NCBI RefSeq assembly: GCF_963676685.1 | Contig: NC_092350.1 | Location: 62,062,001-62,126,000, forward strand | Direction of reading: 5' to 3' | Length of the DNA stretch: 64,000 nt | From: Mytilus edulis | Lineage: Eukaryota | In this document: one piece after another, positions 7,450 to 59,953 of the stretch | Layout: every line of letters starts with the position of its first letter | How positions within the stretch are numbered: the first letter of the stretch is position 1 | Position numbers and translations under genes: made by a program | Notes under the pieces: model-generated | Databases searched by the model: none | Told to the model about the DNA's origin: nothing | What the model saw: the letters and a program-made list of their open reading frames with translations, nothing else

Positions 7450-7703
7450 TCATTTCATCAAATAAACTTTGAATTCCTGTACGTCCTGAACCCCGTCACA
7501 CATAACGGTGTAGTTGTTATGCAAACTGCACTGTCCTGTTGCTGTGGAAATCACAAACAGTTTACAGTTGTCAGATATGTAGCAATACCGTGCACATTCA
7601 ACTTTACTTCTTGATGTCAGGACTTGGTTAGACGGTGATGTAAGTATCGTCCTATTTGAGATTAACTGATACTGCAATTTTTCCTCTTTATATGGTAGAT
7701 ATC
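7450..7703 (-). CDS. Copy 1 terminal exon, PAN/apple-like domain
   Basis: tttacag acceptor, phase 1; SKVECARYC...C..F......C.L pattern; lies within ORF 7450..7716. Confidence 0.85.
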
Positions 7704-13700: not shown

Positions 13701-16700
13701 AAATATCCTACTGTATGGCAGCTGTTTTTTTATTCATTTGACGTGCTTGAATTTTTGTTTTTGCCATTTTACTAAGGACTTTCCAATATGAATTTTCCTC
13801 GGAATTTTGTATTTTTATAATTCTACATTTTATATAATATATTTAATTGTTTATGCATAAACATCTTATTGATTTGGATCACGTTCCTAACGATTCTTTC
13901 AAAAATTACTAAAGCTAGTCTACAAAAAAACAACACCAAAACGATCACGTCAGTCAATGAAGGTTGTTTCAATATCAAATATACAAGGTAAAACCATAAA
14001 GGAAATGTAAATTTCGTTTTACAAATTACAATTCAAGATGAATTTACCAGGTCAGGAATGTGACAGTTGTTATTCATATGTTTTATATGTTTCAGCTTTT
14101 GACTTTTCCATTTGATTACATACTTTCCATTTCGATTTTTCTCGGAGCTCAGAATTTTTGTTATTTTACTTTTTTAGTACGTCTGAAATATTTTTCTGGA
14201 AATATCCTTATTGGAAACGCTCAAAACCCTCAAATCTTAAAGACCAGAACATATGAAATGTCTTCAAAGTTGTTAGTAAGTGGAAAAACATTTAACTGCA
14301 AACAGGAAGTACTGATTTGATATACTGTAAAATTGAGAATGGAAATGGGGAATTTGCCAAAGAGACAACAACCCGACCATAGAAAAAAACAACAGCAGAA
14401 GGTCACCAACAGGTCTTCAATGTAGCGAGAAATTCCCGCACCCGGAGGCGTCCTTCAACTGGCCCCTAAACAAACATATACTAGTTCAGTGATAATGAAC
14501 GCCATACTAATATCCAAATTGTACACAAGAAACTAAAATTAAAATAATACAAGACTAACAAAGGCCAGAGGCTCCTGACTTGGGACAGGCGCAAAAATGC
14601 GGCGGGGTTAAACATGTTTGTGAGATCTCAACCCTCCCCCTATACCTCTAGCCAATGTAGAAAAGTAAACGCATAACAATACGCACATTAAATTTCAGTT
14701 CAAGAGAAGTCCGAGTCTGATATCAGAAGATGTAACCAAAGAAAATAAACAAAATGACAATAATACATAAATAACAACAGACAGGTATACAATTTTTCTT
14801 TCTGGTGACTTCCTCGTGTAGACATGTGTAAAGCGGTTAATAAATAGTACAAGTTAGGCTTAGTTGAATACATATTTTGTATTTGTTGCATACTGTTTTT
14901 CGTTTGATCATCAAATTACAATGAGATAAATCGCTTCAACTATAACAGTTTTCGAAAAAAAATAATCTGATAAACATGATAAAAATACTTTTGATAATAA
15001 AGTTAATCACGCACATTGTCACTTTCTTTTTATTGTTTATGTACAAAAATCTTAGTTCTTTTTTTTAGTATAAGAATCTAGGTCGAAATATTTAACATTA
15101 AATTCATACTGATTAACATCTAACATATGTACAATACAAGTTTTTCCTTATTTCTAGTTCCAACATGTATATACTTGGAATTCTTAAGAGTTTCTTTTAT
15201 TCACAGTTATAAGAATGCATGCGATTGAATGTCTTCTAAAAAAACACTTAAAAATCTTTTTGTCAGACATCTTTTCGAAACTAGAAATAGAAAGGTGAGA
15301 TTTTTTTTCCAAAGATATATCATTGATACCTTTTAGAGAAATGGACTAATTGTGATCGAGATATAAAGCATGGGATGTAAAAGCTACAGAAGAACTTAGT
15401 TTGAAATGGCAATAGGTAGAAAATAACGCATGCATTCTTATAACTGTGATTGAATGTTACTGTTTTGAGTTAATAGTACACACGGCGATAATTATAATAA
15501 TCTAATAAATGATTGGCAAAAATGTATATGCTTGTGATCGTCCTATGTGGCAATCGTAACAACGTATTTTATTTGGTTTTTACACCAGGTATAACTAGCA
15601 ATCAAATTTTCAAACAGTGGTAAATGGAACAGCTGCAGACATTTCATAGATACTATTTACTAGCTTGAATTATTGTGGAGTCCTCGATTATCCCATCTTT
15701 TAAAAAACCCCATTAAAGATGGCAATTACATGTTTCATGTTGTTGTGAGATAATTTATCAAATTTCTATCCAAATAAAGGATATAATAATATATCAGCAT
15801 GTTAAACATTTCAATGACGTGTTCATAACTACTAAATATTGAGATTTGCTGCTTTTCTACTTAACATGATGCATTTTGGACTGAGTGCAACGACCACCAG
15901 TCGGCCTTGATATAATTTTTTCTTGTTGCATATGCCTTCGGACTGTGAAATAGCAGTTAAAAATCAAGCATCATACATCCAGACGTAAATTGAAATAACA
16001 CTTTAAAGATATGTTTAAAAGACACTGTTGAAATGACTGTTGCCCTTTTAAATCTTTTCCTTGAAAAGAGACGTGAAAGAGACGTAAAGAACATTCCTAA
16101 TTTTTTTAATTGATGCTGTGAGTTCTAATTCATGACGTTGATGTTTAATGTAACGTTGCGATTGTAAAGGTTTTGTTCTTCATTTAGGCACCAAACCATT
16201 TAGTTTAAGCATTCATTTGAAAAATAAGGATTTGTTTGTCATTACTTCAAAAATATGTTTTGTAACCTCAACTCCTATTACTGCTTTATAACTGAAATTG
16301 TTTTGGTTTTGTTTTTTTTGCATTTTCTGTGTTAATGTTGTTAAATATTAGGTTAATACACTAAACCATATTTAGCAGAACATCATAGAATAGGGTGATC
16401 GGATATACAGTCATATAAAGAATACAAATATGATAGTTCCTTTGATAATCTTAATAAAAAAGAAAAACATTTGATGTGTTTATGTTCTTTAAAGGGTTCT
16501 ATTAAGAAATGAAGTAAATTGATAAACAAATTGTTTTTTCCTCACCAGTTTAAATTGTGATGTTAAAATTTTGTAAATGGATAAACATAATTAGTTCAAC
16601 GCTATTTGAAAATATTTTATAATCAAATTCGTGTCGATGCATGTTTTATACAGAAATTAATAAATGACCTTTTCCATATCGGCCCGCTTATTATCCCGAC

Positions 16701-18816
16701 ACCCCATATTATCTCCATACGTAGTCGAGGTGCAGATATGGGTCGATGGATGATATCCGGGCCGATATGGAAAAGGCCATGTATTAATTTCTTTGTCATA
16801 TATACTTACGACAAATTTTGCATCCAACATATACACTTTAATTTTTTAACAAAAACATCACTACCTCCATATATTCTTATGGTAACGTAGATCCTGTAGA
16901 TCCTTTAAATCCATGATAAACCAGCATTATTTTAAAAATCTATACCATTGGGTTTAACCATGTTTACATCTGCTTTTCAATAACAGCTGGTACTGTATAG
17001 ACAGATTTACCACTGGATCAAATACACATTAGTTGTCCCAAATTACTGGACATCACAAAATGTTGATGTCATAATAAAAAAAAATCTGACGCCACAAGGA
17101 AAAGTTAACAGACGAAACTGGAAGTACCGGAAGTAACTTGCACGAGAGGCACTGTTATGTTGGTTTTTTTTTTTTTTTGCACGAGAGGCCCCTGATATAG
17201 TTTATAACAAGTATCAGTCTGGGTGTGAAATTATGCCATGTGTACTTCCGTGTGTTACACATATTCAAAAGCTATTATATTGATGCTAAGTATATGATAA
17301 AAAAAAGTGTTATCCTGATTTAGAGTAAATTCTCGAAATTTGATTGGCTGATATTGTTCTTATAAATTTCAGTACAAGTTTTTTGTTCCGTCAATTGGAA
17401 TTATCTCCCTTATTTATTACGTCACCCGATAGGAATTGTATTGACTCGATAAATTCTCGTATTAGGACAATTGCACACTATGTAACTAATATTATAGTAT
17501 GACCAAATACTCAACTATTGACGACAACAAAAACAAGCCATTGAAATGTCTTTATTACTGTGGAAACCTTTATGGGACACATTATATCTGCTTAGCAAAA
17601 TACTCAGAGAAGTTAATTAATTGCAATGAACACTTATTGAAGTGAAAAGAAACGTCCACCATCTAGTAAACCTGTACCTGGTGTTCATGCAGTATATTTA
17701 ACTTTCAATAACTTAAGATAACTTAACGGGTTTATTTACTATTTGTAGAATAAAGACTTGATTTTCTTTCCAGATTAAAGATTTTTAATTATTCACCTAA
17801 TTTAAACAAAACAAGTAATTGGTAAATCAGGGAAACATTGTCTTAAAACTGACGGTAAACAATGTTCCATTGACGTGTTGTCCTAACTAGAAGTTTGGAA
17901 ATTATACACATAAATAATGGCAGCAAATGATCATTTTTCAATGAATGTATGCATGACACTTTTTCAGAATGGAAATGTATGTTCATCACATAAAAATAAA
18001 TAATGTTTATAGCTAATGACACTATAAAATATATAGATACTTAGTAATGAAAATCGCCCCTTTACAAAATTTTAAAAATTATATTGAATGAAGAAATAAA
18101 TCTTCCGCACCTGCACACGCAAAGCTTTGATTCCTTGCAAACACTTTGTTATAATTTTGCTCATATTGATTCCTATTCTCTTTATATTGATCATAATTCT
18201 ATGTTCAGATATGTTTGCCCCCAGTATCTCCGAAAAGAAATGTATTGTCGAAATGTACATTTATTACAGAAAAATTGGTACCGTCAATGTTTCGGCGACA
18301 GTATAAAACACATACTTATGTGTTAAGCAGGAAAACTAATTAACATGGACGAAATGGGAAACATAATGTCGTTTTCATACAACGTTTTTTAATACAATCT
18401 ATATCACTCTTTATTTAGAAATAAAAGATCTACCAATGTTTTGGATTCATTGCAAGTTTACTCAAAGAGATCATTGCTAGCGTATTGTTCAAGTTCGTAA
18501 GGACATTATTAGCAACTCTGTTAAAGTGTTTCTATTTTTTGTGTTCAATTGTGAACTCGTAGTTCAGTATTTTTGTGATTTTATTTTTTGATGACCTAAG
18601 ATGATTCCATAAAATCTTATACGCCGAAACTGTAATTAAATTAAGTTTCAATAAGAAATAAAGAAAACATCACAATATGAAACTAATATGCCTAACTGTC
18701 GGTGTTATGCATTTGTTATTAGATATATTGATAGTTATTAAATATAAATTAGACTAAAATAGTATTACCTTAACTGATTCTATAGAATAAACACACATCA
18801 ACGAGCTCAGCAGCAT
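7450..18816 (-). CDS. Gene copy 1 (spliced): secreted WSC-domain + PAN/apple-like protein, 205 aa
   Basis: Exons 18816-18769, 12760-12742, 12054-11903, 9871-9727, 7703-7450, all GT-AG, join to 618 nt without internal stops: MLLSSLMCVYSIESVK-SQVQVI-DNNAYVGCFIDT...MCLLYCKEKGYMYSGTQ-YGFECYCGDDPY...CDMECYGDSGQMCGGFWRMSVYKT-GYLPYK...SKVECARYCYISDNCKLF...CSLHNNYTVMC...YLMK*. The YxGC..C..C..ECxCG..C..CxG..CGG..SVY pattern is the WSC signature. Confidence 0.85.
9727..9871 (-). CDS. Copy 1 WSC exon 2
   Basis: ttttag|YGFECYCGDDPYQHCPDKYVQDYDCDMECYGDSGQMCGGFWRMSVYKT-G|gtaagg, 145 nt. Confidence 0.9.
10371..10470. repeat. Foldback inverted repeat
   Basis: taatacggtatatatggggtcagtaa / ttactgactccatatttaccgtatta, with outer arms tacatagtgtgct / agcacactgtgta. 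Confidence 0.75.
11420..11690 (-). mobile_element. Non-autonomous repeat carrying a degenerate hammerhead (11454-11495)
   Basis: cgtca-CTAATGA-gtcttatgtagac-GACA-cgtgcg-TC-ttgcg; related copies at 26220-26550 (+), 55990-56040 and 47790-47845. Confidence 0.6.
11903..12054 (-). CDS. Copy 1 WSC exon 1
   Basis: cacag|(D)NNAYVGCFIDTVSQRLFPHQYLLSRYHPDTENNMCLLYCKEKGYMYSGTQ|gtattg, 152 nt. Confidence 0.9.
12189..12556. mobile_element. MITE with TTAA target-site duplication (Kolobok/piggyBac-type)
   Basis: TTAA|ggatgttt...gcgaacatcc|TTAA; sister copies at 25410-25800 and about 43146-43525. Confidence 0.75.
12742..12760 (-). CDS. Copy 1 19-nt micro-exon (SQVQVI)
   Basis: tttttcag|AGTCAAGTACAGGTAATTG|gtgagt; conserved in all three copies and needed for phase. 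Confidence 0.8.
12995..13195. mobile_element. Small MITE with 16-bp TIR and internal TAATCA(C/A)A repeats
   Basis: gaggcccctcatgggg...ccccatgagggccctc flanked by direct ATGTAT. Confidence 0.8.
14327..14782 (+). repeat. Interspersed repeat (aaaattgagaatggaaatgggg...ctggcccctaaac)
   Basis: Diverged copies at about 37073-37310 and 42460-42600. Confidence 0.7.
15202..15448. mobile_element. MITE with perfect 22-bp TIR, CAC- termini and ATT flanks (CACTA/CMC-like)
   Basis: att|cacagttataagaatgcatgcg ... cgcatgcattcttataactgtg|att. Confidence 0.75.
16652..16793. repeat. Foldback palindrome, probable end of a non-autonomous DNA element
   Basis: agaaattaataaatgaccttttccatatcggccc / gggccgatatggaaaaggccatgtattaatttct. 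Confidence 0.8.
18769..18816 (-). CDS. Copy 1 signal-peptide exon, type A (MLLSSLMCVYSIESVK)
   Basis: AAG|gtaata donor; homologous to 56166-56222 including flanks. Confidence 0.7.
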
Positions 18817-19447
18817 CAAGAATGTGATCGTTTCATGAATTGTTACGACATAATCTACGTCAGATTTAAGTAACTCCTTTCAAACAAAATACATAATCGA
18901 ATAAACAACGCTTAAAACACAAGAACATGCAGTTAACTGCAAGAAATATTAAAAAGACCAATGTCTGTATTTCATCAGTACTCAGCAAGATGCATGTTGG
19001 GCAATCAGCATTCTAATTATAAGACTATTAAATTTTCGATTTCGGAATTAACAAATTTTACTTTGAAAACTTAAATAGATCATGTAGATTGCAAATGCAG
19101 ATTATTGTTCGATTATCTGAAACAATATTTAAATAAAACAATGTCAAAATGATTTTTATACCAAAGTATTCCGATAGAAAAAGTGTACAAGACTTAAACA
19201 GAAAATTCAATATTGTCTTAAAACCGGTCAGACCAAGCTTATTTGTTTAAAACACCTTAATTACCAAATTGATCAAACTGGAAGGGCAAAATTATTACAA
19301 ATATTAATGGTTAAATAATTGTTTGTTAAAAGAGGTTTGGAAAATGACTTCTTAAATGAGTTTAATGTTACAAAAACGTTCAAACGATTTTTGTCAAATG
19401 CTACAGTAGTTTTGGTTCATATGTATAGTTGGCAATTATTGTTTTAC

Positions 19448-19675
19448 AATAGAGGGACGAACGATACCAGAGGGAGAGCACAAACTCATAGATAGAGAAT
19501 AAACTAACAACGCCATGGCTAAAAATAAAAAGACAAACAGACAACTAATAGTACAGAACACATAACATAGAAAACTGAAGACTAGGCAACACGAACCACA
19601 CCAAAAACTTGGGGCGGTCTCAGGTGCTCCCGGAGGGTAAGCAGATCCTGCTCCACATGTGGCACCCGTCGTTAC
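19448..19675 (-). repeat. Abundant retroelement-derived 3' tail repeat
   Basis: Same family as 32470-32695, 41320-41472, 46985-47130, 47410-47550, 48100-48145 and 50350-50490. Confidence 0.8.
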
Positions 19676-22600
19676 ACGTTGCGCTTTGTAAAAACGTCTA
19701 TTTTGAAAACCACACCTCTTTTGGGGAGATATATAATATAATATAAAAATTGTTTTTTGTTGATTTACTGGTTCCAAAAGATGATATCTAAGTTTCATCT
19801 CACCATGCGCATAGAAACAAATTTGTGAATTTTATATTATAAATATAATAAAATTAGCGGCAGCATTGCATTCTGAGGGAGACTAATAGCAAAGGTGTGG
19901 GTAGTACATAATTTAAGTACAAGTGTAAAATCGTCGAAGTTCAGGGCATACAAATGTTGAAAAAAAGCCGAACAAACCTATATTTTGACGTTAGAAAAAC
20001 ATAATTATTAGTGAAAATGAGCACTCTATTCTAGGTTTTATTATTTTTCGAAACTTTTTAGCCGTAAACGGAGTTCCGATGGGAAGTTGCATGACAGTTC
20101 GTATTTTCATATCTATACCGAGCATTGGTCTGGTTATTATTGTAATGTTTTTGTCGCACGAACTTTGTTATTTAATTTTACGAAAAAATGAGGCGAAAGA
20201 CAGCCTTTTGTTATTTGATCAATTGGTAGGCCAAGGTCAACAGTTTCACAAAAGGTATCACTCAAAAGCATTGAAAATCTAGTTTGAACCAAATTTTGGT
20301 GGAAAATCTGACAATTTTATTCCCCTTTTTACAATATGTTATGGTAAATAAATGCAGAATGTTGTCATGAATACACAAAAACGGAATTTAGTTTTATCAT
20401 TTTAACTTTTGAAAATCCAATCTTTGGAAAATATTGATCACATGCATATGCACAGGTATAACACAAACAGTAAGGTTAATGGATTATTAAGCCAGGAATA
20501 GAATATGAGTAAACATTTGGTGGTTCAATTTAAATTTTAATATCATACTGTGGGGTGTTACCTTATGGCACATCAAAAAGCACAGAAATGCACTTTTTAA
20601 GATACATTTTACCACAAATCTTTTATTTGTTAGGTTCTAACTTTGTTCTGAAGGGATCACATATGATAGGATGGCAATACATGTTAATTTTATTGTTTAC
20701 TGTCCTTAGCAACCAAATACACAAATTTGACACTCAGACTTGCTTCAGTCTTAAATTTGTCCTCCATCAGCTTCACATTTATAACCAAAGTTTGCGCTTT
20801 CAATGATATCATCAGAATGTATCGCTTTTTTTTTGGCATGCGAATGAGTCAGATAAACATTTAAGCAGAATTTACATATTATTTGACATTAATTCAATTC
20901 AAATAGACCAGTACTGTTAGAAATTTATTCCATATTTGAGGGTTTTTCAACCAAGGTTTTGTATGCTATTTACAGAACAAATCACCTATAAGTGCTTTTA
21001 AATACTTAAAATGATTTTAAACAGAAACGAGGGACACGTTTTAGAAATTTACCCCAAGGTTTTACACATTGATCAAGTATTTCTGTTACTTATTTGTTTT
21101 CGCGTTTAAACATCAACTGATAATCTTTATTACTGAACCGATTTTAAAAACTAAAGTACAATTTTAATCGTTACAGCTTGAAGAGCACACCCATTGTATT
21201 ACACATTGATACTGGGGAAAACAATTTTATATTTAGGTAGCACCTCGCAGTTAGGTGTGTAGTTTCGCATTTTGTCACCTGTTTTCAATATAAGAGCTAG
21301 TGTGCAATAGCATTCATTGCTTGACAGTGGGTTCATAGAAACATCAAGACTATGTGATGTTTGTAATATCGCCTGTTTCCTGTATGCCAATCCTTTTTTT
21401 TCATATCCATACTAAGCATTGGTCCAGCTATTATTGTAATGTGTTTTTCCTTTGTTTTGTCACACGAACTTTGTGATTAACTTTTACGAAAAAAAATCCA
21501 TATTTTATTTGATCAAAAGGTAGATTAATGTTTTCAGAAAAGCTATTACTCAAAAGCATTGAATTTCTAAATTGAACCAAATCTTTAAACCCCTTTGGCA
21601 TTAGTTTATGGTTAGTCGAGAATATTTCACTCGTTTGAACAATCATATTAACATTGTAAAATATATTCTAAGAAAGAAATTAAAACCAATCAAATGAATG
21701 AAAAGTATCCATGTAGTATGAAATAAGCCCGGTGGATTTACAATATATTGACCGTTATTATGAAATAGTGTGATTTGTAAAGCTATGGTTATAGAAGAAA
21801 ACCTTGCATGCCTGTATTATTTCACAACTTACTTATAAAAATTGAAAAGATGTAATTGGGAAACTTTTTTTACGATTTATGTGACAGGTGTGTGGACATG
21901 TAGTTTTAGTAAATGCCTATGAAAAGTCCAGTGCGATATTGCAGGTTTCTAGTGGTAGTTCAGATTTTTTTCTCATAGCGATGAGAAAAAAGGAGTGTTA
22001 AATAAGTTAATGAATTACCAAATTTACCAAAATGATGAGCGGCACATATTTTATTAAAATGTTTACAATCAGTTTCGGTTTAAACTAATGTTATAAACGG
22101 GTGTGACCGAGGGCCAGTTTTGTCTTGTTGTTTAACAACCCTTATAATATTTAATTTCAAATCATTTAACATATCCCTGACTGTCAGAAATTTTGATTCC
22201 GTGAATTTTACGACTTTGCAATGACTCAGTGTTTGAAGGTTGCGACACTTATGAAATAGCTATGAATAAAAAATGGCTGTTAAAATCTTTTGGGCTTTAA
22301 ATCTTTTGTTTATACACTGTTCCGCGACGTTTTTCGTGTGAGTACAGCTGTTATATAACTATTACAACATTCTAATGGTTGAAGGCCTGTGTAATTCCAC
22401 CGTTGATTTTCACTATTAGTCTTTGTTACAATTGAACTTTTCAAAGAAGTGTGCATATTTTTACTTTGTTTGAAATAATGAAATACTTGGCATGAGTAAA
22501 GTGTTATCATGTCCAGTACTATAGAACTAACTTCACAAAACAATTCATTGCATATAAGAAAATGACTATCACTGGAAGTTAACCCCAAAATTTCCCCCAT

Positions 22601-25409
22601 GTAGCCTCAAGTTGCCAAAATATTTTATAGAAACTCCCAATTAAAAAAAATAATGCTTCTTTGAAATACTCAAGATATATATTTATGACAAGAAAATGTT
22701 TTACTGCAATAAAATGTAGCATTAATTACCTACAACTGTCAAATTAAATGGAATATATGCCTACATAGGACTCGTTTTGCATTTAAGTTATATTAGACTC
22801 TTCTGAATAGTAAATTTATCGAACATTTGATTAAATACTGTTTTCACTTTTTGATAATTCGGTATTTCCAATGCCTCCTTATCGAACACAAATTTGCAAT
22901 TTCTAACCAACAATTCGTTTGATATGTTTGTATAAAGAAATGGTTATCTGGACTATTGTACAAAAAGTGTAATCTCAGTTAATTATAAGTATGAATTACT
23001 CCAAGGAGCTGGCAAAAATTAATTCTCTAGAAATATGTAAATATACAATTATAAACATTGTCGCTATCTAATTATGTAATGTGATGAAATCGAAGTTGGT
23101 ATGTTCCAGGAAATGACTTTGTGAATAATGAATTTTACTATTCTGGTTAATATATTTCATACAGTATCTGAGGGGACATAAGGAAAGCATATTTAAAAGC
23201 AATATCACTATTACAGGTCTTGGATATAACGAATAAAGAAAAATGTATCGATTTGTAATAAGTACATAACGACGTGCAAATTAACAAAAAGGATCTTTAA
23301 TTCTTACGTTTTAAATAAGTAATATTTCATTAGTAGTTCGCGATACTTTCACAAACATTAAAAATCAGCAAGGAAATTGTGTTTGGTCTAATAAAATAGA
23401 ATGAGGGTTTTTTTTTAAATTTCTGCCAATATACAAGTACTTTTGAAATGTAATAATCTTATGATTTTGTTATAAGTTAATTATTCGATAATTTATATTG
23501 ATAACGTTTGATCTTTTCAGTAATTAGCTACATCAAATGCTACCATGCAAACATGCCAACATAAAATATCTATTCTAATCGATTGATATTATAGTTATAT
23601 ATGAACGGAAAGGTAATATATCTCCATCAGTTTAAAATAAGTATAAATATTTCCCAGATTCGCTGAAACATTTTAACATACTGCGATAGTAGAAGGATTT
23701 AATACAATTTATATTATGTTTATGTCACTTTAATGTGCGTCGTCGATTATTTATCTCAGTTTCCTTTAATAGTATACAATAAAGAAAATAATATTTGGAA
23801 ACTTTTCATATTCAGTTGAATAATCGTAACATCCACACTTTCTTTTGTTACATGAATTTAGCTGTTGACAAAGGCGTCCACAAAATTATAGCAAATCTAT
23901 TTTATGTTCAAGATAAGAGTGCAAACACATATTGAACTGACATTACAAATCAGTAGTTAATGTATCTAAAGATGTTTTGAAAAACGAAATAAAAGCCTAC
24001 CAACACTTGCCACATTTGTCTTGTAAAATTAAATAATATGTCGGGGTCAGTAAATTAAACAAAATTACTCAGAATAAAATGCTTTTTATGAATTACAGCA
24101 ATATTTGAAAATTCTGACTACAATTTTCTGTTAGCTTTAATGTTGAGTGCCAACATTCCATTTTTTATTCAAAATAGCGAACAGTCATTAACAACCAGTA
24201 GTTGTGAAAAATCATGATGGTTCATTTACCCAGCAGAAATATTTGCCTGTATCAGTAAGAACTACCAATATGTGCAAGTTTTAGCACAACTATATTCCGG
24301 AACCATTAATCAGTGAATATGATAAAATATGATGGATTACATAATAGAAATTTAAAAGTGATATTGGGGCATGAAGAAGGCTTTAATTGAGAGTTTTCCT
24401 TTGTATTCACAATACCGAACAAAAACTTACAATTATATGTGTTTACATCTCAGACTATTAAGTGTTGCAAAAAAGGTAAAACGCATCAATCCATTTTGGT
24501 AATATTTCTATCTTATATTGCACATTATAGACGGGTATCATCAATGTGAAATTTAATAATATGATAGAATGGTATGATATAATTGACAGCACAATGACTA
24601 CGACATTTTTTGGATTAAACTTTTTAAAAAAATGAACCTACTTTAAAACAAAATGTTCGCCAGCATCATTTTACACTAGCAATGTTGTGCTATAATGACA
24701 ATTATATACCGGGGTCGTTAAGTGATAGATTTCAACATTTCATTTTTTGTATTCAAAACACTGTGCTAAATCTTAAATCAGTAGTTCCGGTATCTCTCAT
24801 TGCCAGTGTTGATTGATGCAAGCAAATATGCTATTATATTATCCTGATGTGTCAAAACTATTGATTTAAGTGCCAGCTCAGTGTTTTGAATAAAAGAAAT
24901 GTAATGTGGGATCTATAATTTATAGTAGAATTCAAAAAGTTGTGTACTGTTGTTGTATCTGTTGTTGCTTGAATGCATTTTGATTGTAGTGATATATACA
25001 TGCATCATCAATGAAATATGTGTGTATATATTTTAATATTTGGGAAATAAACAAAAAGTTTATCATTTTTGATAAAATAATACATTCAATAATATATACT
25101 CTTATCACAAATACTTATTCACCTGTTATGATCTTGTATATTATGTTCTATCACGTTTGTTCTCAACTTCTCAGAATAAATGTCTGTTTGTATACATTTT
25201 ATCACATTTCCTCTTTAAAATGTAGTGAAACTAAAAACAATGGAGCAACACTTTTTTTCTTGGCAGAATATAATGACTAAAACATATGTTTTAAAACCCC
25301 AAAATTTCTCAAAAGGTATACCGTATATTAACTACGTTGTAAAATAGTTAAGAATGTATTGATTCTCGTCTGAAGGTAACTTCTGGTATACAATTGTAAT
25401 TGACCTTAA

Positions 25410-25800
25410 GGATGTTTGCCCCTCTACTTTTTGAATTTTTGCCAGATTTTTGGAATCCTCTGGTTTTATCCATGTATTAACATTAAAAAAAAAATGCCCA
25501 CTAACCCCTACTTTTCTTTTCAATTTTTTATAACATATTATTTGAAAAGCCATATTTCAAAATTTTATGAAATCCTAGTTATTTTTTCATAATTTTTTCA
25601 ACAAAAAAGGTGTCGATGTTAAGTGAAAGAAAAATCTAGAGAGAATTATTTCCCGCCAAATTTTCAATGGCTTATATCTCGAAAACAAGCACACAGACCC
25701 TCCATTTTTTTCTGCTTTTTTAGTTTCTTTATTTATATACTTTCAATTTATAACAGTCTTTTAAAAAGCTTGTTATTTTTAATCAGAGTAGCGAACATCC
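25410..25800. mobile_element. MITE with TTAA target-site duplication
   Basis: TTAA|ggatgtttgc...gcgaacatcc|TTAA. Confidence 0.8.
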
Positions 25801-26940
25801 TTAATGAAAAGTATCAAGTTTATTAATGCTGTCTTTAATCAAGTGGCTTTTGATATTATAACAGAGACAAAATGTCTGACTGAAAACGGATAATTTTAAC
25901 AGAGAAAACTGACAAATACAAGGGAAATATCAAATGAATTAAAAAAAATGAAATAATATGGTATTGCCCTTTTGGGAATCATCGCAGCTTATTTTGAAAA
26001 TACCTTCTCCGTCGAATTCTCTGAATTTTAGGATGTTGTAAAGCGTAGTGTGCACAAACTATTGATGCTTAAGCAGCAGCGGTTGACAATGAAATTCGAC
26101 GTGAACAGTCCTATCACATGTAGTATAACTAAATAAATGTAAGATGCAAGTTGATAGAACTCAAGGGACATCAATGTGTCATTAAAAAGATTGGCCAGTG
26201 ATAAAAATGGATCGATGCAACAGCTGGTGAAGTTTTAATTCCCCGAGGGTATCACTAGCCCAGTAGTCAGCACTTCTGTTCTGACATTAATTATCATTGA
26301 TATGGTCATACATATATATAAATTAACTGTGTACAAACTTGTGAATTATTAGTATACTAAGGCTTTCTATTTCAGAAATAGATAACCTAAGGCAAAACTT
26401 TTAGGAATTTTGGTCCTCGATGTTCTTCAACTTCGTACTTTATTTGGCCTTTTTTTTTTTTTAACTTTTTTTAAATTCGAGCGTTATTTTTGTAGACAAA
26501 ACGCGTGTTTGGCGTAAATACAAAATTTAATCCTGCTATCTTCGATAAGTTTATATACTATTTCGTGCAAATCTTTGCAGACACTAATACTTTTAAAGAT
26601 TTATGTCAGGTAGAGCAAACTGTCAGAAAAACCTAAATATATGCATCATGTACAACATAATAAGTGAAAAAAATTAAATGTATAGTTAGTGGGATCAACG
26701 CATCAAATTGGTGGTAGTCTTATTATTGATTTCGATTACCAGAATGACATTTTTAACTTAACACACTTTAATCAATATAATATAACTTAAAAAAATAAAC
26801 TCTCAGTATTATATGTCTATCTATTGCAGTTAACTACAAAAATATAGAATGATTTGTTCAAATTTTTATCATAATGGTGTAACGTTCTGGTGCGTCAGTG
26901 GTTTGCTCCATTTCAGATGTCTAACAAATTATCATATTTA

Positions 26941-28420
26941 CAGTTGAGTGCAGATCAAGCATTACATGTAGACGGGCCGAAAAAAGTTAACGCGGCGTTT
27001 ACTCGCGTGCGCTTCAAGAAAACGTCGCGTTAACTGTGCGTTAACTCCGATATTTCAGTAGACATAAAAAGTAAACGTGCGTTTACTTTCACGTTTACCT
27101 CCGCGTTAACGAAAAATCGGTGCGTCTTTTAATTTTGTGAAGAGTAAACGGGCGTTTACTTTCGTGTTCACAAATAACAGCAATATTGGACTACAGTTTT
27201 GGTTTGCATCAATTTATATTACCAGCATGTCCTCTATTTATTCAAAATATTGAATCGTAAACAAAACATCAGAAGTTTTCATACCTCAGACTGACTGGTA
27301 TAACAAAATTATTCATGATTGATTTCACTCCCGGTTTTTAGTGGAGTTCGTGTTGTTTCTTTATTATTATTGATAACTGTTGATGTAAATGTCCTCTTGT
27401 TTTGTGAGTCTTTGTTTACTCCTCAGTTTTGATTGTTATTGTCTTATAATGAAAAGTTTTAGAAGTTCTCTTCTTTGAATAGTGTACTGTTAATTTATTA
27501 TTTCGGTTGAGTGATTTCGTGTGTAGCTTAGCATTCTTTGTTTAATTTTGTATTCATGTCTACAACGTGTATTTTTTTCGGACGTCCCCGATATCATTCA
27601 TAATCGTTACGGATAAGTCTGTTTTAATTGACGAGATATGGTACAAATGTTTATACTTATACAAGACCATATCAGTATCCTTTTTTATACAATGTACAAT
27701 TTTCGATTGAACATTTGGCAAAACAGAATTGTAAATCATATAAATCCAATGCAAACAAGGTGAAGAGACTATTAAAAATGGGGAACGAAGCAACGAAAAC
27801 CGTAATGTTTATATCCCATCATATAAAAATATTTTTCCGATGTGTTGGATAACCTATCTATGGGGGGCATCTATCCGCTTTGATTTTTGAATATTTAACT
27901 TTAAAAAAAAGGAAAAATAGCAAGTCTGCAACTCAGTAAAGGTATTGGAACTGATTTTTTGTAATTAATAAGATTTAATATTTCGAATTAAAAGTGATTT
28001 TAAATTGTTCTGGTTAGAAACACATATACGTAAAATCTTAAGATAAAAGTCGTTTTCGTAAAAGAAATGTACAAACACGAAGTTCATTGTTAATTTTCAC
28101 AATCCGTTAACGCGAAAAGTAAACGTGCGTTTACTTTCAAGTGCACGTAATAATATAGTTGTGAAATATGTAGTAAATGCCCGTTTACTTTTAAGTGCAC
28201 GTAAAAATCAACCTGTGAAATCTGAAGTAAACGCCCGTTTACTACTGACTAAACGGACACAGAGTAAACGCGCGTTTACCTGGGTAGACATTAGAAATTT
28301 CCATTTTGATCAAGTTAACGTAATTATAGTAAACGCGAAAATTAAAGTGAACTAGCGGAATATGTGCACGCGGCGTTAACGGGCGTTTACTTTATGTAAT
28401 GCTTGGTCTGCATCCAACTG
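26941..28420. mobile_element. 1.48-kb non-autonomous DNA transposon with TA target-site duplication
   Basis: ta|cagttgagtgcagatcaagcattacat ... atgtaatgcttggtctgcatccaactg|ta; subterminal GTAAACGnGCGTTTAC palindromes at both ends. Confidence 0.85.
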
Positions 28421-29414
28421 TATATGATACGTTTTGTATTTTAATTGAAACACTTTTCACAATGTTATTGCTTTTGTCTGAAGCTTTAATTTTGTTTATT
28501 ATGATGTAAAAACTATATCTATCTTATATACATTATTATATACTTTAACAATAAATTCCATATGACAAAATTAAAATCGTAATCAATCCAAGGTCCCCTA
28601 ATTTTACGCACCAATCTTGAACCACTTCTGTCTCCTGACTGTGTCTTTATTAAAATCGTCGAAAATCCTTTTGCCCAAATATCTTACAGTGTGATAATCA
28701 TTATCATAATTTAAACAGGCAACTTGTTGTGTTTTTATCTATATATGTTCCTTATTCAGAAGTTAAAACATAACGTCTGTTACATTGGCCAAAGAAATGT
28801 GTTGCCTCAGTTTAAAAGCACCCGATTTTACACTCGCCACTGTTAGTGTTGGTTGATCGTGGAATAGCATCACATTGAAGAAAAAGCTGTTAAGTTTATC
28901 TTAGATTGATTTTACATGTAAAAGATACAGATAAGGCTTTTGTGTGGTTGTAGCAATAATTACCCCCTTAAAAAAAAACTGTAAATAAGTCATGTATGTT
29001 CACTGTTGTGACACGTTCTCGGCAAGATGCTATTGCTCATAAAAACGCAAAAACAAATGATCAAGAAACTATACAAATAAAAACAATCAAGAAACTTTTC
29101 TATTTGTACAGCCTCGTTTCGTTTGGTGATGTTTCCCCCAGATATTAAAGTCTCTTCACTCCATAAGGAAATCTTATCTAATTCACCAACAAAAACTGAG
29201 AGATTCGGTCGCATGAACATGATGAACTCGAAAAGTAAAGGGTGTCTCCTACTTTGCATGCACACCACACCATGCAATTTCACCCTTCATATGTAATGAC
29301 ATAAAATTGTTATTTAATGCTTTTTCCTGATAAAAAAAGTGGTGTTTTAAAGTTAACAATTGAATAATAATAATAATATATAAATATGTTTTGATTGATA
29401 AAATAATGAGTTAC

Positions 29415-29471
29415 CTTAATTGAATTCACAATTTCAGCAAATGACAACAAAACAATACAGTTTATAATCAT
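29415..29471 (-). CDS. Orphan or alternative signal-peptide exon, type B (MIINCIVLLSFAEIVNSIK)
   Basis: 57 nt, ATG to AAG|gtaact, phase 0; homologous to the copy 2 first exon 42737-42793, with shared upstream motif ataatcaattttgaatgtgct. Confidence 0.65.
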
Positions 29472-30998
29472 CCTTCTTTCCCGGGTTGCAATGATAGAAT
29501 AAAAATTACGCAAAATGACATTCAAATACGTGGGACAAATTCAATATAAGGTTCTAAATTATTAATGAAAATAATTGCTTGTTTGCCGTGAAGTCATTTG
29601 CTGGTAAAATAATCAATTTTGAATGTGCTAATCATGGATTGAAATACATTGTTTCGATAAGACCAGCAGTTGTTAAAAGTTGTAAAAGAAGACCCCGTCT
29701 ACTTCCGATGTCCTAATACTTAAGTTTTTCCCCAGGGGATCAGAATTAAAGCAACACTTTTACATTTAAGCTTTACTGAACATCAAAATGGGCATTGTAT
29801 ACATGATTAATAGGACAATATGTATTATGTTAAGATGTTTTTATTTAAAATACACAATTCAGAACAATTGTTTTACATCAATAATATCATCAAACTATCA
29901 AACAATATGACCGCTTTCCGAAAACCCAACATACCAGAGTTGAGACATCGCCATTTCTGTTATGTGAAAAATAAACTTCAAAATAGGCTATCATATTGAA
30001 AAAAAGACCACGTCTACTTACGATGAATACTTTTAGAGTTTCGCAAGGGAATCAAAAAATTTTCACTTTTACATTTCAGTTTTACTGATACTGTCTGGGT
30101 TAATTGTGTGTCCTTTTTGTTGTGTTTTTGTTATTTGATTGATTTATGAATTTTTATGAATTTACAATTTATGTGTCTCTGCTTCCTTGATCATTTTTTA
30201 CACTGTATTTTATTTATCGAGATTGGGAGATTATGTGAGTTGTCGTCAAACATGTGTTCATTTAGTCTCAAGTGTGAAACTATAATATCCAATACAAGAA
30301 CATGACAGTTATTGCAGTCTTTGGTGGATTTATCGAAAGTTATTTCCTCGGGCATACAACCTCAATTACATTTTTAAATATCTTGAATATTTAAACCAAA
30401 AAGGTCATCTAAGTGGCAATATGTGTTTTAAAAATTATCAAATAAATGTCATAACAGAATGGTTATTTTTTGAATGTTGAATTAGTTCGATTTCCCTTTT
30501 GAAACTACCTCAAAATCAAGAAACACACAAGATTATGAATGGTGGGAAAACGTAGAACTTTTATTACCAATGGAATAATTGTAAAAGATAATTTACAATG
30601 ATTTTAATCAATCACTTTGATTTATTTAACAGACAAAATATATAGTTGGATATAAGTGCTTGTCTCAAACTAAGTATCGCTAGAGCGGTCACTGTTGTTT
30701 TGTGGTTTGCTTTATGTAAATAAATCACAGTTAAATATGGCGATATTTTAAAAAAATGCAACTCCAAAGATTTGTGTTCAGTTATTACTGCACTGAAGGT
30801 TAAAATATATTAAATAAATCAATTGGCCAAAAAAAAACGCTTATTTTCATATCTGTCACGCTTTAAAAACCGGGTTTCTCATCAATTTAAAAATAATTGC
30901 AGTGTTAATACCGTTATGAACAAATTGTTCCATATCTAAGTCAAAACAAAAATTTAAAGGTAGTTTATTCACATTTTTGTCACAAGTATATTCTATAT

Positions 30999-31246
30999 TT
31001 ATTTCATCATATAAACTTGGAAATCCTGTGCGAACTGAACTTCCTTACACATAACGGTGAAGCTGTTATACAAACGGCACTCTCTTGTTTCTGTAGAAAT
31101 CACGAATACTTTACAGTTCTCAGCCATTTGGCAATACCGTGCACATTCAATTTTACTTCCACATGTCAGGACTGTGTTGGCCGGCGCCGCAAGTATCGTG
31201 TTATTTGTGACCAGCTTATACTGGCCTTGTTTGTAAGGTACATACC
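30999..31246 (-). CDS. Copy 2 PAN/apple-like terminal exon
   Basis: ttttcag|(G)YVPYKQGQYKLVTNNTILAAPANTVLTCGSKIECARYCQMAENCKVFVISTETRECRLYNSFTVMCKEVQFAQDFQVYMMK*. Confidence 0.88.
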
Positions 31247-34200
31247 CTGAAAATGCGTTTAAAGATAAAATAGAAGAAAGGCAAAGTTTATATTCATTTC
31301 CAATGCAATAGGAAAAACTAAATCTTTAAAAAAGTTCAATGAATACAATCGCCTCTTTCAGCTTCAGTGATGAACAGATGAAAATGTTAGTGTATGCAAC
31401 CATTTCAATGTATTTTTTCGCTGAATAGCAAAACACATTCACCTTATTGACGCCTCCAATCTCGTTCATTTTAAGTAAATTAATATCCATCAGTCTTGTT
31501 TTGTGTGCTTTAATTTTTGTATTCTGAATTAATGTGTGCGATATAAGCATCGGTAACTTTTTTTATCGAGTTTATTCAGATTATTATTTATGTTTGCAAT
31601 TATTCTTATTAACCGAAATGAAGTAAAAACTTAATTAATGTGTGCGATATAAGCATCGGTAACTTTTTTTATCGAGTTTATTAAGATTATTATTTATGTT
31701 TGCAATTATTCTTATTAACCGAAATGAAGTAAAAACAATATATTGGCATTATCCAATTAATATACGATAATCAATCGAAATAGAAAGAAATAAATGAATT
31801 AAAATTGTGCACTAAAATATCATTTTACCGCAGTATATCAGGACAACACAGAAAAGAAAATGAAATCTGATACAACGCTTTGATTGAAATAGGGATTTGT
31901 TTTAATCATATTTGGCCAGGTTACAGAAATTTACAAAGTTTATTAATAAGATAAGTTGATGGCGGAATTGAGTACTGTTAAATACTGATTTAAAATTAGA
32001 GAAAACAACAGTGGCAACAGCCGAGGTCATGTAAAATGTTTAGTCGTCACTTTTCCTCAATTCTCACATTAATAAAAGATTCAATTCTGTGAAAGTATGT
32101 ATTGGTCACTCTTATTTGGAAACTATAACTGTTGTGTATGTACTCATTCAGGTGAATAATTGATAATAAACAGAATAACACTATCGTTTTCATTTTAACC
32201 GTGATATTAGAAATGAAGATAATTGAATAATGATTTACAACATGATTTACAAGGAAGCTATTAAATCAAGAGTTCAAAATGGTGAAGTTGAAATCATTTC
32301 TTCGTAAATTTTACGGACGCAATCACGAGTTGGTTGACCGTTATGGAATAACTGTTTCACAAATGATATCGGATATGTTCCTTACGTCGTAACTAAATTC
32401 CCCTTCACTTTCATGAATGTGGCCTACCGAATTAGACTATTTACCGGATTTGTTATCTCATAAGCAACAAGACGGGCGCCACATGTGGAGCAGGATCTGC
32501 TTACCCTCCCGGAGCACCTAAGATCACCCCTAGTTTTTGGTGGGGTTCGTGTTGTTTATTCTTTAGTTTTCTATGTTGTGTCATGTGGACTATTGTTTGT
32601 CTGTGTGTCCTTTTCTTTTTTAGCCATGGCGTTGTCAGTTTATTTTCGATTTATGAGTTTGACTGTCCCTCTGGTATCTTTCGTCCTTCTTTTACACCAG
32701 CATTTTCCATATTTAGCGAGCAACCTTTCTAAAAAAGTTCATGCAAAATCCACAATCAGTTAACATACCTGTTTCATACACTGATAACCTCCATCCACCC
32801 CCACATATCTGTTCAGAATCACCAACACACTCCCGATTACAATCATAATCCTTTATGTGATAATCACTTACATCTTCAGGACCGTACTGATACGGGTCAT
32901 CACCACAATGACATTCCGCTCTATTCTACAAATAATCAAATATGTTGGTTTTTTTTTTTTTTTTTTTTTTATTCAGGTGAATAGTTTGTACGTTAAAATC
33001 AAACAAGACAGTTGATGAAAGCGATAGTTAGGACTAAATGTGGATTTTGAAAAGAATTTCTGCACATATGACTGGAGCCTTGATCATGCTGATTGCCTTT
33101 TGTAAATTCACATTCAAATTCATAGCGATTGCAAGATCTTGTTGAGCGTGGGGTTGGTTCAGGGTGCTCTTTGATATTATTTCTCAATCGAAGACAAAGT
33201 AAGTTATCTTAGGCCGTGTTCATACCAAATGTCATGTACAGTAATCATGTTTACAATTTGTTTAATGTAATGTACACTGGATTCACATTGAATTTGTTCA
33301 CATCTATTCACTAGGTTTAATTACATGTAAACGAGATTTGTTCACTCTTGTTAACTATTTGCCATTTGAATGCTCATTACATAGAATCGAATTTAAATTT
33401 CTCGGACAACTTTTCTAGTAATTGGGAAGCTACCATTTGATTTTTGGAGCCGGCTGAGAAATAATTTAAAAAAAAAATCAGATGTTTGCAAACAAAAAAA
33501 GGAGGATGACAATGTAAGTAAAAAAAAGTCAGGATAAACTAATAAATCAATGCAGAACCGAATAAAAAAAAGGCAGGACAGCGATAACAACTTCAAAAAA
33601 GCAAGACAAAATGTTACCGGATCTTAGATACTGGCCAAACAATACAATTTACGCACACTCATTTTAGTAATACATTTATGAGTAAATTGTTAATTGAGTG
33701 AAGGCCAGTGATAAATATTTCTGTGTACGTTCAAAAGATTCAGAAGACATTTCAAAATGAACTATGTGTTTGGCAATGATGATGCGTTGAGTCTTGATGA
33801 GGGGTTAATAAAGCTATCTAAAGTTGATTTTATTTATTATAACAAAGCAATACATCTAGTTTAGCAAATGTTTAGAGATTTAATTCGGTAAAAACTTGAT
33901 TAATAATTATTATAAATATCCATTTTATTCAAGCAACGTTTCCTTTTTCATGGTAAAATTCATGTTCTAAGTACCTTGTTGCGTGTACACTTAACTCACA
34001 CAAGCCCTATATTGACTATCGACTGCATGTAGTCAACACATGATTTAAACTACATGTAAACATTGAGTTTTATCAATGGAAACACACATGTGTATAGTTT
34101 AGGTGTGAATTACACAAACACAACAGCAAGTTTATGTATATGTGAGAAAAAAAAATATAAAACACAAATATATTGAACTCTGAGGAAAATTCAAAACGGG

Positions 34201-50312: not shown

Positions 50313-50956
50313 TAAATAAACATGATCAATGTAATGTAAACAAAAAACGAAATATATCAAAGGAATATTCAACCACATAAGTCAAAAATCAAATTACAAC
50401 ACCACGGCTAAAATAGAAACAGACCAATAGACAAACAACATTAGACAAAACACAAAATTGAAAACTAAAGAATGACCAACACGAACCAAACCTAACAATT
50501 ATACAATTAACTGCAATATTTGAAAAGTAAAAAGAGTTACTGTAATACGGTGAGAATTGTTTGTTTGGATTAAGCAAATTAATATTGATTTTGTTTTAAA
50601 AGAAAATGTCACCACAATAGTGCTTGTCTAATAATCCCAAATTTCGGATCACATTTTACTAAGCATATATAAGATAAATTTGTTTCAGTCTAAAAGAAAA
50701 AGTAATAACATTTAAAAATAACACATTTGTATCGTCACATATATCTATCGAAAATCGACATGTGCTAAATTAAAACAACAGAAGTATACCACTGTGCGAA
50801 ATTCATAAATAGATTGAGGAAAAAACAAATCATGAAAAATAAAGTTATACCGGATATTTAAAACAAATAGTGTGCAAAAAATTACAGTTATACTCCAATT
50901 GAAGGTTAATTTAAGCCAGTATTTATATGCAGTTGTTTCACTAGTATATTTTACGC

Positions 50957-51125
50957 TTATTTCATCATATAAACCTGGAATCCCTGTACGATTTGAACTC
51001 CTTCACACATAACGGTGTGGCTATTATACAAACTGCACTCTTTTGTTTCTGTGGAAATTACGAATACTTTACAGTTGTCAGAAATTTTGCAATACTGTGC
51101 ACAATCAATTTTACTTCTTGATGCA
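50957..51125 (-). pseudogene. Orphaned 3' half of a PAN exon
   Basis: Open frame ASRSKIDCAQYCKISDNCKVFVISTETKECSLYNSHTVMCEGVQIVQGFQVYMMK* fused directly to intron-homologous sequence; no phase-1 compatible acceptor found. Confidence 0.8.
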
Positions 51126-51534
51126 AAGATCATCTTTTAGCTGAAGTGATGAAAAGATTAAATTTGGAATACATGCAACCAGTTCAATGTACATTCTTTT
51201 GCTGAATATCAGAAAACACGCACCTATTTGACACCTCCAATCTCGTTCTTTTTTGATAAATTTGATCCATCCGTGTTGTATGTTGTGCTTTGGTTTGTGG
51301 GTTATTGATGTTGGATATTATTCCGTTATCTATATGTCTGACTAGGCGAACATAAACAAAATGAAGTAACAAAAATGTTATGTGCATTATCCAATTTTAT
51401 GATAATCAACTAAAAGGAGGCACAATTAAGGAATCAAAATGTAACACTACAATATGAATCTGACCTTAACAATATAAAGACGGAACATCAAAGACAACAG
51501 ACTCAGAGCTTCGATTAACAAATAGATTTGTTCC

Positions 51535-51654
51535 CATACTGTGCACATTAACTTACACTTATTGATGGTAGGACTTGGTTTCCCGTTGCTGTAACGTTCG
51601 TGTTATTTTAGACTAACTTATACTAAACCCAACTTTGCTTATAAGGTAAATAGC
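51535..51654 (-). pseudogene. 5' half of copy 3 PAN exon with three in-frame stops
   Basis: ttgcag|(G)YLPYKQSWV*YKLV*NNTNVTATGNQVLPSISVS*CAQY. Confidence 0.8.
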
Positions 51655-59929: not shown

Positions 59930-59953
59930 AGCATTTCGTGCGTAAAAATGACC

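What the first reader, a model, noticed from the sequence alone, without database searches (positions are those of the whole stretch)
18769..29471. Four first exons for three genes: two signal-peptide/promoter lineages and a possible alternative leader
Seen: type A leaders at 18769 and 56166 and type B leaders at 29415 and 42737. All end in Lys|gt at phase 0, so all fit the micro-exon. The B exon at 29415 has an intact ATG, donor and conserved upstream region, but I found no WSC or PAN exons between it and copy 1. Inference: either copy 1 has two alternative promoters and signal peptides, or this is the surviving head of a deleted fourth paralogue. In both cases leaders and gene bodies appear to have been shuffled.
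Basis: partly seen in the sequence, partly recalled or inferred. Interest (0 to 1): 0.7.

Follow-up and report, generated by a model that had tools for sequence, protein, structure and literature searches.

The report
Leader-exon takeover in mussel gene array
In a tandem array of mussel genes for predicted secreted WSC+PAN proteins, the extra first exon is likely the surviving head of a deleted neighbour; it now stands in front of a gene whose own first exon has lost its ancestral start codon, and sister copies have lost that exon altogether, so this copy is probably midway through a promoter takeover, although use of the extra exon in RNA is untested.

Summary
The four leader exons are real, at the stated places; no gene body lies at 18.9-29.4 kb. 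The array extends far beyond the window (11 B and 27 A leaders found), and the other copies settle the history. A1 (18769) is gene 1's native first exon. B1 (29415) is the head of a paralogue whose body was removed (junction 21826); a later crossover (24.9-25.3 kb) renewed its upstream half. A sister locus shares that junction, keeps a PAN-exon scar, has lost A, and has an intact B-to-body-1 reading frame. Gene 2 went the same way: its intron is A-type, A is dead in 1 copy and deleted in 3, and annotated proteins start with B. A1 has lost the ancestral ATG and gained an out-of-frame upstream ATG. B-headed bodies are not one clade (AU p 4e-5). So B has captured A-headed bodies more than once, and gene 1 looks like the intermediate stage. 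Missing: any B1-to-micro-exon read. Four raw RNA runs had none on B1; contig tables were swamped by repeats. This is a known kind of event (5' swapping among tandem duplicates) with an unusually complete series of stages.

The parts
29415..29471 (-). B1 leader exon, coding part (19 codons, predicted signal peptide, phase-0 donor); head of a paralogue whose body is gone
   Evidence: 55/57 nt identical to the most distant B copy whose flanks are 74% identical
29472..29842 (-). conserved upstream block of B1 (inferred promoter and 5' UTR); starts about 1.2 kb after gene 2's stop codon
25300..29414 (-). proximal B1 intron, 91-96% identical per 400-nt bin to the B-to-body-4 units (80-88% to the sister B-to-body-1' unit)
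24900..25300 (.). inferred unequal-crossover zone: the nearest relative switches from the B-to-body-4 units to the B-to-body-1' unit
21827..24900 (-). distal B intron; from 22900 to 24900 it is 89-94% identical to the B-to-body-1' unit and 82-86% to the C7 body-4 units (about equal below 22900)
21668..21826 (.). junction: homology to body-4 introns ends at 21826; the next 160 nt were found only in the window, its duplicate and the B-to-body-1' unit
18893..19180 (-). conserved upstream block of A leaders (inferred promoter)
18769..18836 (-). A1 leader: ancestral ATG at 18825 reads ACA; in-frame ATG at 18816 (16 codons); new out-of-frame ATG at 18836
12761..18768 (-). native intron 1 of the A1 gene, collinear in patches with intron 1 of other A1-clade genes
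12742..12760 (-). 19-nt micro-exon of gene 1 (begins with Ser; among the micro-exons printed this is shared only with its duplicate and the sister B-headed copy)
11903..12054 (-). gene 1 WSC exon a
   Evidence: an RNA-type contig ends exactly at its donor
9727..9871 (-). gene 1 WSC exon b
7450..7703 (-). gene 1 PAN exon with stop
42737..42793 (-). B2 leader, first exon of gene 2 in annotated protein P0013
38229..42736 (-). gene 2 intron 1: B-derived start, A-type distal part, A exon deleted here
30999..38228 (-). gene 2 body (micro-exon 38228-38210, WSC 37839-37691 and 32925-32769, PAN 31246-30999)
56166..56222 (-). A3 leader of gene 3
50953..54291 (-). gene 3 body; PAN exon broken (upstream PAN-like copy stops after 9 codons, downstream copy lacks its 5' part)

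Best explanation
The exon at 29415 is likely the head of a neighbouring paralogue whose body was deleted, left in phase 16.7 kb upstream of gene 1's micro-exon, and the locus is probably an intermediate in a takeover in which this B promoter and signal-peptide exon would replace gene 1's damaged native A leader. Shown by sequence comparison: (1) A1 and its intron are gene 1's own; (2) the B intron ends at a junction shared with a sister locus that keeps a scar of a removed gene's last exon; (3) that sister locus has lost A and has an open B-to-body-1 frame; (4) gene 2 shows the same series (A dead in one copy, deleted in three, proteins annotated from B); (5) A1 lost codon-1 ATG and gained an out-of-frame ATG. 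Inferred: every leader ends at phase 0 before the same micro-exon, so any deletion or unequal crossover inside the long first intron gives a spliceable gene with a swapped promoter and signal peptide. While both leaders remain, A's donor is nearer the micro-exon and would compete with B's, so loss of A would be tolerated or favoured. Untested: that B1 is transcribed and spliced to 12760 in this copy.
For: Window 12864-18769 matches intron 1 of the A-headed genes at C7:61746822 and C6:66057482 in ordered patches. Sister locus C7:62332510-62349240 is collinear with the window from B1 to the PAN exon except for 12864-21668. Its gap holds a PAN remnant plus 3' flank and no A promoter or exon. Its exons are open: 190 codons, 0 stops, 156/189 aa identical to body 1, dN 0.092, dS 0.157. 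The 160-nt junction segment was found in three places only. Gene 2's distal intron is A1-clade intron; the A exon is broken in 1 of 4 copies and removed in 3 of 4 by at least two different deletions. Annotated proteins P0010, P0013, P0017 and P0018 begin with B2 plus the micro-exon, and P0018 matches the copy with the dead A inside a 13.5-kb intron. In a tree of 33 bodies the 9 with a B leader upstream are rejected as a clade (AU p 3.6e-5; 4 changes of leader type). The B exon is more conserved than its flanks: 2/57 differences to two distant copies (p 7e-6 and 4e-5) and 4/57 to the sister copy (p 0.03). Best 8-residue hydropathy is 3.04 for B1 and 2.30 for A1; only one full-length A leader scores lower than A1. 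Gene 1 and gene 2 exons appear spliced in RNA-type contigs X2 and X1.
Against: No B1 junction was seen. Four raw RNA runs (2 studies, 6-18% of each read) had zero depth at 28972-29595; whether gene 1 is on in those runs could not be read. No annotated model joins body 1 to B1 or to A1: P0001 starts at an internal Met and P0006 is a fused model. The window's B1 came by crossover from units whose body 4 is dead in 2 of 3 copies (stop in WSC exon a, truncated; one B frameshifted). Its lack of changes since that split is not significant (2/57 to the nearest unshifted copy, p 0.16). A1 still has a promoter block, an in-frame ATG and a good donor. The PAN scar is only 65-70% like the body-4 clade and sits at an open node, so it may belong to another removed neighbour. 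dN/dS between body 1 and body 1' is about 0.6 overall and above 1 in the PAN exon (2 synonymous changes only), weak evidence of constraint. Exon conservation could also come from gene conversion. Near-identical copies can cross-map, so annotated B2 models need not prove each copy is expressed.
Confidence: 0.58

Rival explanations
1. Same origin, but B1 is a silent relic. Gene 1 is made from A1 only (shorter 16-codon leader, less translation because of the upstream ATG), and B1 has not had time to decay.
For: Zero raw-read depth on B1 in 4 of 4 runs. B1's nearest relatives head dead bodies. Only about 6-8% divergence since the split, so an intact 57-nt exon is expected by chance. RNA-type contigs run from gene 2's 3' end into B1's upstream region, which could mean read-through over the promoter (these runs were picked for holding that stretch).
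Against: The sister copy keeps body 1' open with B as the only leader found. Gene 2 completed the same change. A1 is damaged.
Confidence: 0.27
2. A stable two-promoter gene: both leaders are kept by selection to give gene 1 two expression patterns, as in variable-first-exon arrays.
For: Both donors are phase 0 and both upstream blocks are kept. The arrangement is present in two tandem copies, 99.3% identical.
Against: A is lost or dead in the 5 other loci where B precedes an A-derived body (sister of gene 1; 4 copies of gene 2). A1 lost ATG1.
Confidence: 0.08
3. B1 is spliced onto A1 as an internal exon, giving an in-frame double leader (B signal, 17-residue spacer, A segment); loss of A1's ATG would then be harmless.
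For: An AG 51 nt upstream of A1 codon 1 is in frame and open to the donor; an AG at about that place recurs across A leaders.
Against: It scores -6.1 on a matrix from 74 family acceptors (true sites: median 10.9, 5th percentile -0.1), and position -3 is A where 72 of 74 true sites have C or T. In most A leaders the same spacer is 52 nt, out of frame.
Confidence: 0.03
4. B-to-body-1 was the ancestral gene and an 8.8-kb piece carrying A1 was inserted into its intron, for example by a transposon.
For: The sister locus lacks exactly 12864-21668; a second A leader lies in a gene-2 intron.
Against: The segment continues as ordinary A-gene intron towards the micro-exon. The sister locus has a scar of another gene at that place instead of an empty site. 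For gene 2, copies without A keep different parts of the segment, which fits deletions.
Confidence: 0.02
5. The arrangement is an assembly error among near-identical copies.
For: Several 95-99% segmental copies; the two B1-A1 units might be two haplotypes laid in tandem. I could not lay DNA reads.
Against: The junction at 21826 is shared with a locus about 10% diverged, so it is old. The two B1-A1 units differ by a 20-kb and a 1.5-kb insertion.
Confidence: 0.02

Closest known systems
Chimeric genes from tandem duplication and later deletion that shuffle 5' regulatory ends (Drosophila yakuba, PMC5460883; abstract and one discussion section read)
   Same: 5' end (promoter, first exon) of one unit joined to the 3' part of another, with deletions following duplication.
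   Different: Here donor and acceptor are paralogues of one family, only promoter and signal peptide change so the mature protein is untouched, the same leader did it repeatedly, and stages with both leaders survive. Expression change is unmeasured here.
Unequal-crossover chimeras in tandem families (spiggin PMC4989455 and Fc-gamma receptor cluster PMC6563257: search listing only; CYP11B1/B2 and Hb Lepore: recalled)
   Same: Hybrid paralogues by crossover in an intron; the window has such a switch at 24.9-25.3 kb and an A-for-A swap on body 3.
   Different: The B events are deletions across a whole neighbour that leave two first exons in series, not a one-for-one exchange.
Variable first-exon clusters (protocadherin, UGT1A; recalled)
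   Same: Several promoter-bearing first exons upstream of shared downstream exons, all in one phase.
   Different: Only two leaders, from old separate lineages (51% identical); the second arrived by loss of a neighbour's body; the other copies resolved to one leader.
Mytilus secreted immune families with conserved signal peptide and variable mature part, under presence-absence variation (CRP-I, PMC10138031; passages read)
   Same: Tandem, fast-changing secreted family with many broken copies and a conserved leader.
   Different: The passages I saw do not report leader swapping (the terms 'promoter' and 'first exon' do not occur). The product here is WSC + PAN, whose only clear solved relative by sequence is the Kremen-1 WSC domain.

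Membership tests
Chimeric gene by 5'-end capture among tandem paralogues | 5' part and body come from different paralogues | tested here: met
Chimeric gene by 5'-end capture among tandem paralogues | junction lies in an intron with compatible phase and an open joined frame | tested here: met
   phase-0 donors and acceptor; open bodies
Chimeric gene by 5'-end capture among tandem paralogues | the chimeric transcript exists | tested here: inconclusive
   gene 2: annotated B2 models; gene 1 from B1: no junction seen, tables cut or gene not shown to be on
Chimeric gene by 5'-end capture among tandem paralogues | expression pattern follows the captured promoter | not testable with these tools
   run tissues are not given; no quantitative data
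Variable first-exon cluster (protocadherin/UGT1A type, recalled) | two or more first exons with own promoters before shared exons | tested here: met
   in structure only:
Variable first-exon cluster (protocadherin/UGT1A type, recalled) | each first exon is spliced to the shared exons | tested here: inconclusive
Variable first-exon cluster (protocadherin/UGT1A type, recalled) | first exons arose by tandem copying of the exon and are stably kept | tested here: not met
   B1 arrived with a neighbour gene; A is dead or deleted in 5 comparable loci
WSC + PAN/apple domain secreted protein | WSC and PAN domains | tested here: met
   PAN_1 above cut-off in 2 of 2 PAN exons; WSC halves E 1e-4 to 1e-5, each under cut-off because the domain is split over two exons; PF01822 and PF00024 on P0001
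WSC + PAN/apple domain secreted protein | cleavable signal peptide | tested here: inconclusive
   hydropathy only; no SignalP available
Sialate O-sulfotransferase (name given by a source to P0006, P0013, P0017, P0018) | sulfotransferase domain | tested here: not met
   the 209-211-aa models consist of leader, micro-exon, WSC and PAN only

The most novel reading that the evidence does not exclude
This family has a 'serial thief' first exon: one B promoter and signal-peptide module has taken over A-headed bodies three times (bodies 4, 2 and 1), always in that direction, because it confers an expression pattern that selection favours. Gene 1 in this window is a live intermediate making both B1- and A1-led mRNAs while A1 is being switched off, which would let regulatory takeover be measured stage by stage within one animal.
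Probability: 0.3. Interest if true: 0.65.

Novelty: new variant of a known kind. Interest (0 to 1): 0.45.

Why it matters
Swapping of 5' ends among tandem duplicates is known, but the step in which old and new first exons coexist is rarely caught. This array holds, in one genome, the start (B on its own body), the intermediate (B and A both present, A damaged or dead) and the end state (A deleted), for two body lineages. That makes it cheap to test whether promoter capture runs through an alternative-first-exon stage and whether competition between splice donors drives loss of the old exon. It also shows a way for a fast-evolving, probably carbohydrate-binding family (inferred from the domains) to change where it is expressed without touching the mature protein. 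Automatic annotation misses the 5' end of gene 1.

Tried and rejected
RNA, raw reads: window 11500-30200 on 4 runs; repeats dominated all tables; B1 bin empty; gene 1 expression unreadable. RNA, contigs: window 11760-31400 on 4 runs, 3 of them only guessed to be RNA and all chosen for holding 27000-33500. Only 15 of 51 joints, 24 of 863 loose ends and 32 of 5752 pieces were shown, none at 29415 or 18769. By my arithmetic the listed contigs explain the whole depth of bin 29445-30099 in X1 and X3, so these two have no contig on B1's ATG half; X2 and X4 have unexplained low depth near B1 that I could not place. Lack of cover in contigs proves nothing. A leaders as second exons with an acceptor: rejected by matrix score and by absence of further conserved upstream blocks; the matrix is family-trained and may be too strict. 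Transposon carriage of A leaders: rejected. Placing the PAN scar in the body-4 clade by tree: unresolved. A remnants in body-4 introns: none, so capture of body 4 rests only on its sister being A-headed (100/99). Rows left out: 3 of 27 A leaders (donor not parsed) from the leader tree; gene pieces lacking one of the three big exons from the body tree; 5 of 33 bodies without a found leader from the count of changes. About 1.06 Mb was examined; more distant WSC loci listed (C8, C9, C12, C13, C14 and others) were not fetched. Papers: 'Mytilus'+'WSC domain'+'PAN' gave 0; 'WSC domain'+'bivalve' gave 3; 'Mytilus'+'WSC' gave 26, none on this family by title; some searches gave only the general comparators. 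PMC4581086 lists a 'WSC domain-containing protein 2' among gill-specific transcripts (one passage); I did not show it is this family. No supplements were read. Three look-ups of earlier findings were empty. No structure prediction was run; it does not bear on the question.
Full report
Observation. The window (G000:C7:62062001-62126000) holds three minus-strand copies of a five-exon gene: leader, 19-nt micro-exon, two exons that make a WSC domain, and a PAN exon. Protein searches return Mytilus records, and annotated protein P0008 has this leader + micro-exon + WSC + PAN build. Sensitive profile and tblastn searches find no body between 18900 and 29400. A and B are old homologues: 51% exon identity against 31% for shuffles.

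The array is larger than the window. Genome searches gave 11 B leaders. In 1.06 Mb examined, profiles found 27 A leaders and 33 bodies with all three large exons. The B1-A1-body 1 unit occurs twice, about 99.3% identical, with a 20-kb and a 1.5-kb insertion in the other copy.

Which leader is native to gene 1? A1. The stretch 12864-18769 matches, in order, intron 1 of A-headed genes at C7:61746822 and C6:66057482. A1 falls in a well supported clade (100/100) with the leaders at C7:61746822, 61941950 and 62033316. It is damaged: the first two of these start with ATG at codon 1, A1 reads ACA there and starts at codon 4, and a GTG-to-ATG change has made an out-of-frame upstream ORF whose stop overlaps the new start.

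Where B1 came from. Three other B1-like leaders (C7:61910427, C7:62289939, C5:77640058) head a different body, called body 4 here. It is complete on C5, and stopped and truncated in the two C7 copies. The window's B1 intron follows those introns down to 21826 and then leaves them. A fourth locus, C7:62332510-62349240, leaves them at the same base and shares the next 160 nt, a segment found only there, in the window and in its duplicate. That locus then has a decayed PAN exon with 3' flank (E 7e-33) and joins gene 1's intron at the equivalent of 12864. The ancestor therefore had a B-headed gene, at least one gene end, and then A1-body 1 in tandem. One event removed body 4; afterwards one lineage lost the scar and kept A1 (window) and the other lost A1 and kept the scar. 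The scar's low-copy flank hits only body-4-clade genes but at 67-71%, and its place in a tree is open, so its exact owner is unsure. Identity to the two donor types switches at 24900-25300: above it 91-97% to the C7 body-4 units, from 22900 to 24900 89-94% to the sister locus. I read this as a later unequal crossover.

Does B take over? In the sister locus B' is the only leader found and leader and body are open: 0 stops in 190 codons, 156/189 residues identical to body 1, dN 0.092 and dS 0.157. Gene 2 shows the same path. Its distal intron 1 is A1-clade intron; one copy still carries an A exon with in-frame stops and a changed donor; three copies lost it through at least two different deletions. 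Annotated proteins P0010, P0013, P0017 and P0018 start with B2 and the micro-exon; P0013 is the window's gene 2 and P0018 the copy with the dead A inside. That such models rest on RNA is my inference from the 19-nt micro-exon; three other members of the cluster (P0014-P0016) start elsewhere. In a tree of 33 bodies the 9 with B upstream are rejected as a clade (AU p 3.6e-5, group named before the tree was seen; 4 changes of leader type among 28 labelled rows). One B-headed body is a long branch, and gene conversion can distort such trees. A-for-A swapping also occurs: the body at C7:61939346 is 0.004 from the window's gene 3 but has an A1-clade leader instead of A3. I found no case of A replacing B.

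RNA. Gene 1 is spliced in at least one run: an X2 contig matches 11903-12031 with no difference, and its other 195 letters leave at the donor. An X1 contig covers gene 2's PAN exon to its acceptor. Both runs are only guessed to be RNA. Neither leader junction was visible. In four raw-read runs the B1 bin had zero depth, but gene 1's own exons could not be told from repeats. Annotated models of body 1 carry neither leader. Use of B1 is therefore open; this is the main weakness.

Mechanism. Shown: uniform phase-0 leaders, the shared junction, the scar, the crossover, decay of A1, and the end states in paralogues. Inferred: deletions and crossovers in long first introns put B in front of A-headed bodies; B transcripts must skip an A exon that has a donor but no good acceptor, so loss of A's donor or exon would help B-led splicing; the result changes promoter and signal peptide but not the mature protein. 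I give 0.58 to gene 1 being such an intermediate with B1 in use, 0.27 to B1 being a silent relic, 0.08 to a stable two-promoter gene, and little to the rest. The origin alone, apart from function, I put at about 0.9.

Comparison. 5' shuffling after tandem duplication is described in Drosophila (PMC5460883; abstract and one section read), and unequal-crossover chimeras in tandem families are common (listings; other examples recalled). The locus resembles variable-first-exon clusters (recalled) but fails their test of stable retention. Seven paper searches showed no description of this family's gene structure; the library lacks most subscription journals and no supplements were read. The name 'sialate O-sulfotransferase-like' given to some models reflects the WSC domain only.

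Verdict. A real feature and a known kind of event, with an unusually complete series of stages and a clear experiment outstanding. Interest 0.45.

Noticed in passing
window 50953-51657: Gene 3's PAN exon is broken: an upstream PAN-like copy stops after 9 codons and the downstream copy lacks its 5' part; the copy at C7:61936461 shares this, while C7:61955263 has a whole exon behind the same upstream copy.
   Followed up: partly
G000:C7:61941950 versus window 56166: Nearly identical gene-3 bodies carry leaders from two different A clades: a recent A-for-A swap.
   Followed up: yes
window 28736-31249: Low-depth RNA-type contigs lie from gene 2's last exon across B1's upstream region and in B1's intron; possibly a long 3' UTR or read-through, or DNA in the library. 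Six AATAAA words lie between 31003 and 29845.
   Followed up: partly
G000:C7:62304552 (-), C7:62537719 (-), C7:68616106 (+): Further orphan A leaders with open frames and no body directly behind them; the one at 62537719 stands 24 kb upstream of another A-headed gene (an A-A pair).
   Followed up: no
G000:C7:61.86-61.94 Mb and 62.26-62.33 Mb: Large inverted segmental copy (about 94-97%) of the gene 3 - gene 2 - B1 block.
   Followed up: partly
G000:C5:77632791-77678177: A dispersed copy of gene 2's end (with stops) followed by B and a complete body 4 across a 35-kb intron; a 250-nt insertion sits just upstream of the ATG.
   Followed up: partly
G000:C7:61868640 and 62316052: Micro-exon is 28 nt instead of 19 (three extra codons), same phases.
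   Followed up: no
window 59953-63164; G000:C7:62128800-62133200 and 62145687-62160901: Tandem repeats with periods of about 740, 200 and 2410 nt (the last 99.8% identical) beside the array.
   Followed up: no
window 14328-14782 and 19445-19672: Young, highly repeated elements (455 nt at 94-96% elsewhere) that dominate RNA read depth.
   Followed up: no
window 18893-19180: A promoter block contains a conserved ATTGG (reverse CCAAT, motif recalled), and nearer the ATG many A leaders carry a palindromic AGGAGCTCCT word, degenerate in A1.
   Followed up: partly
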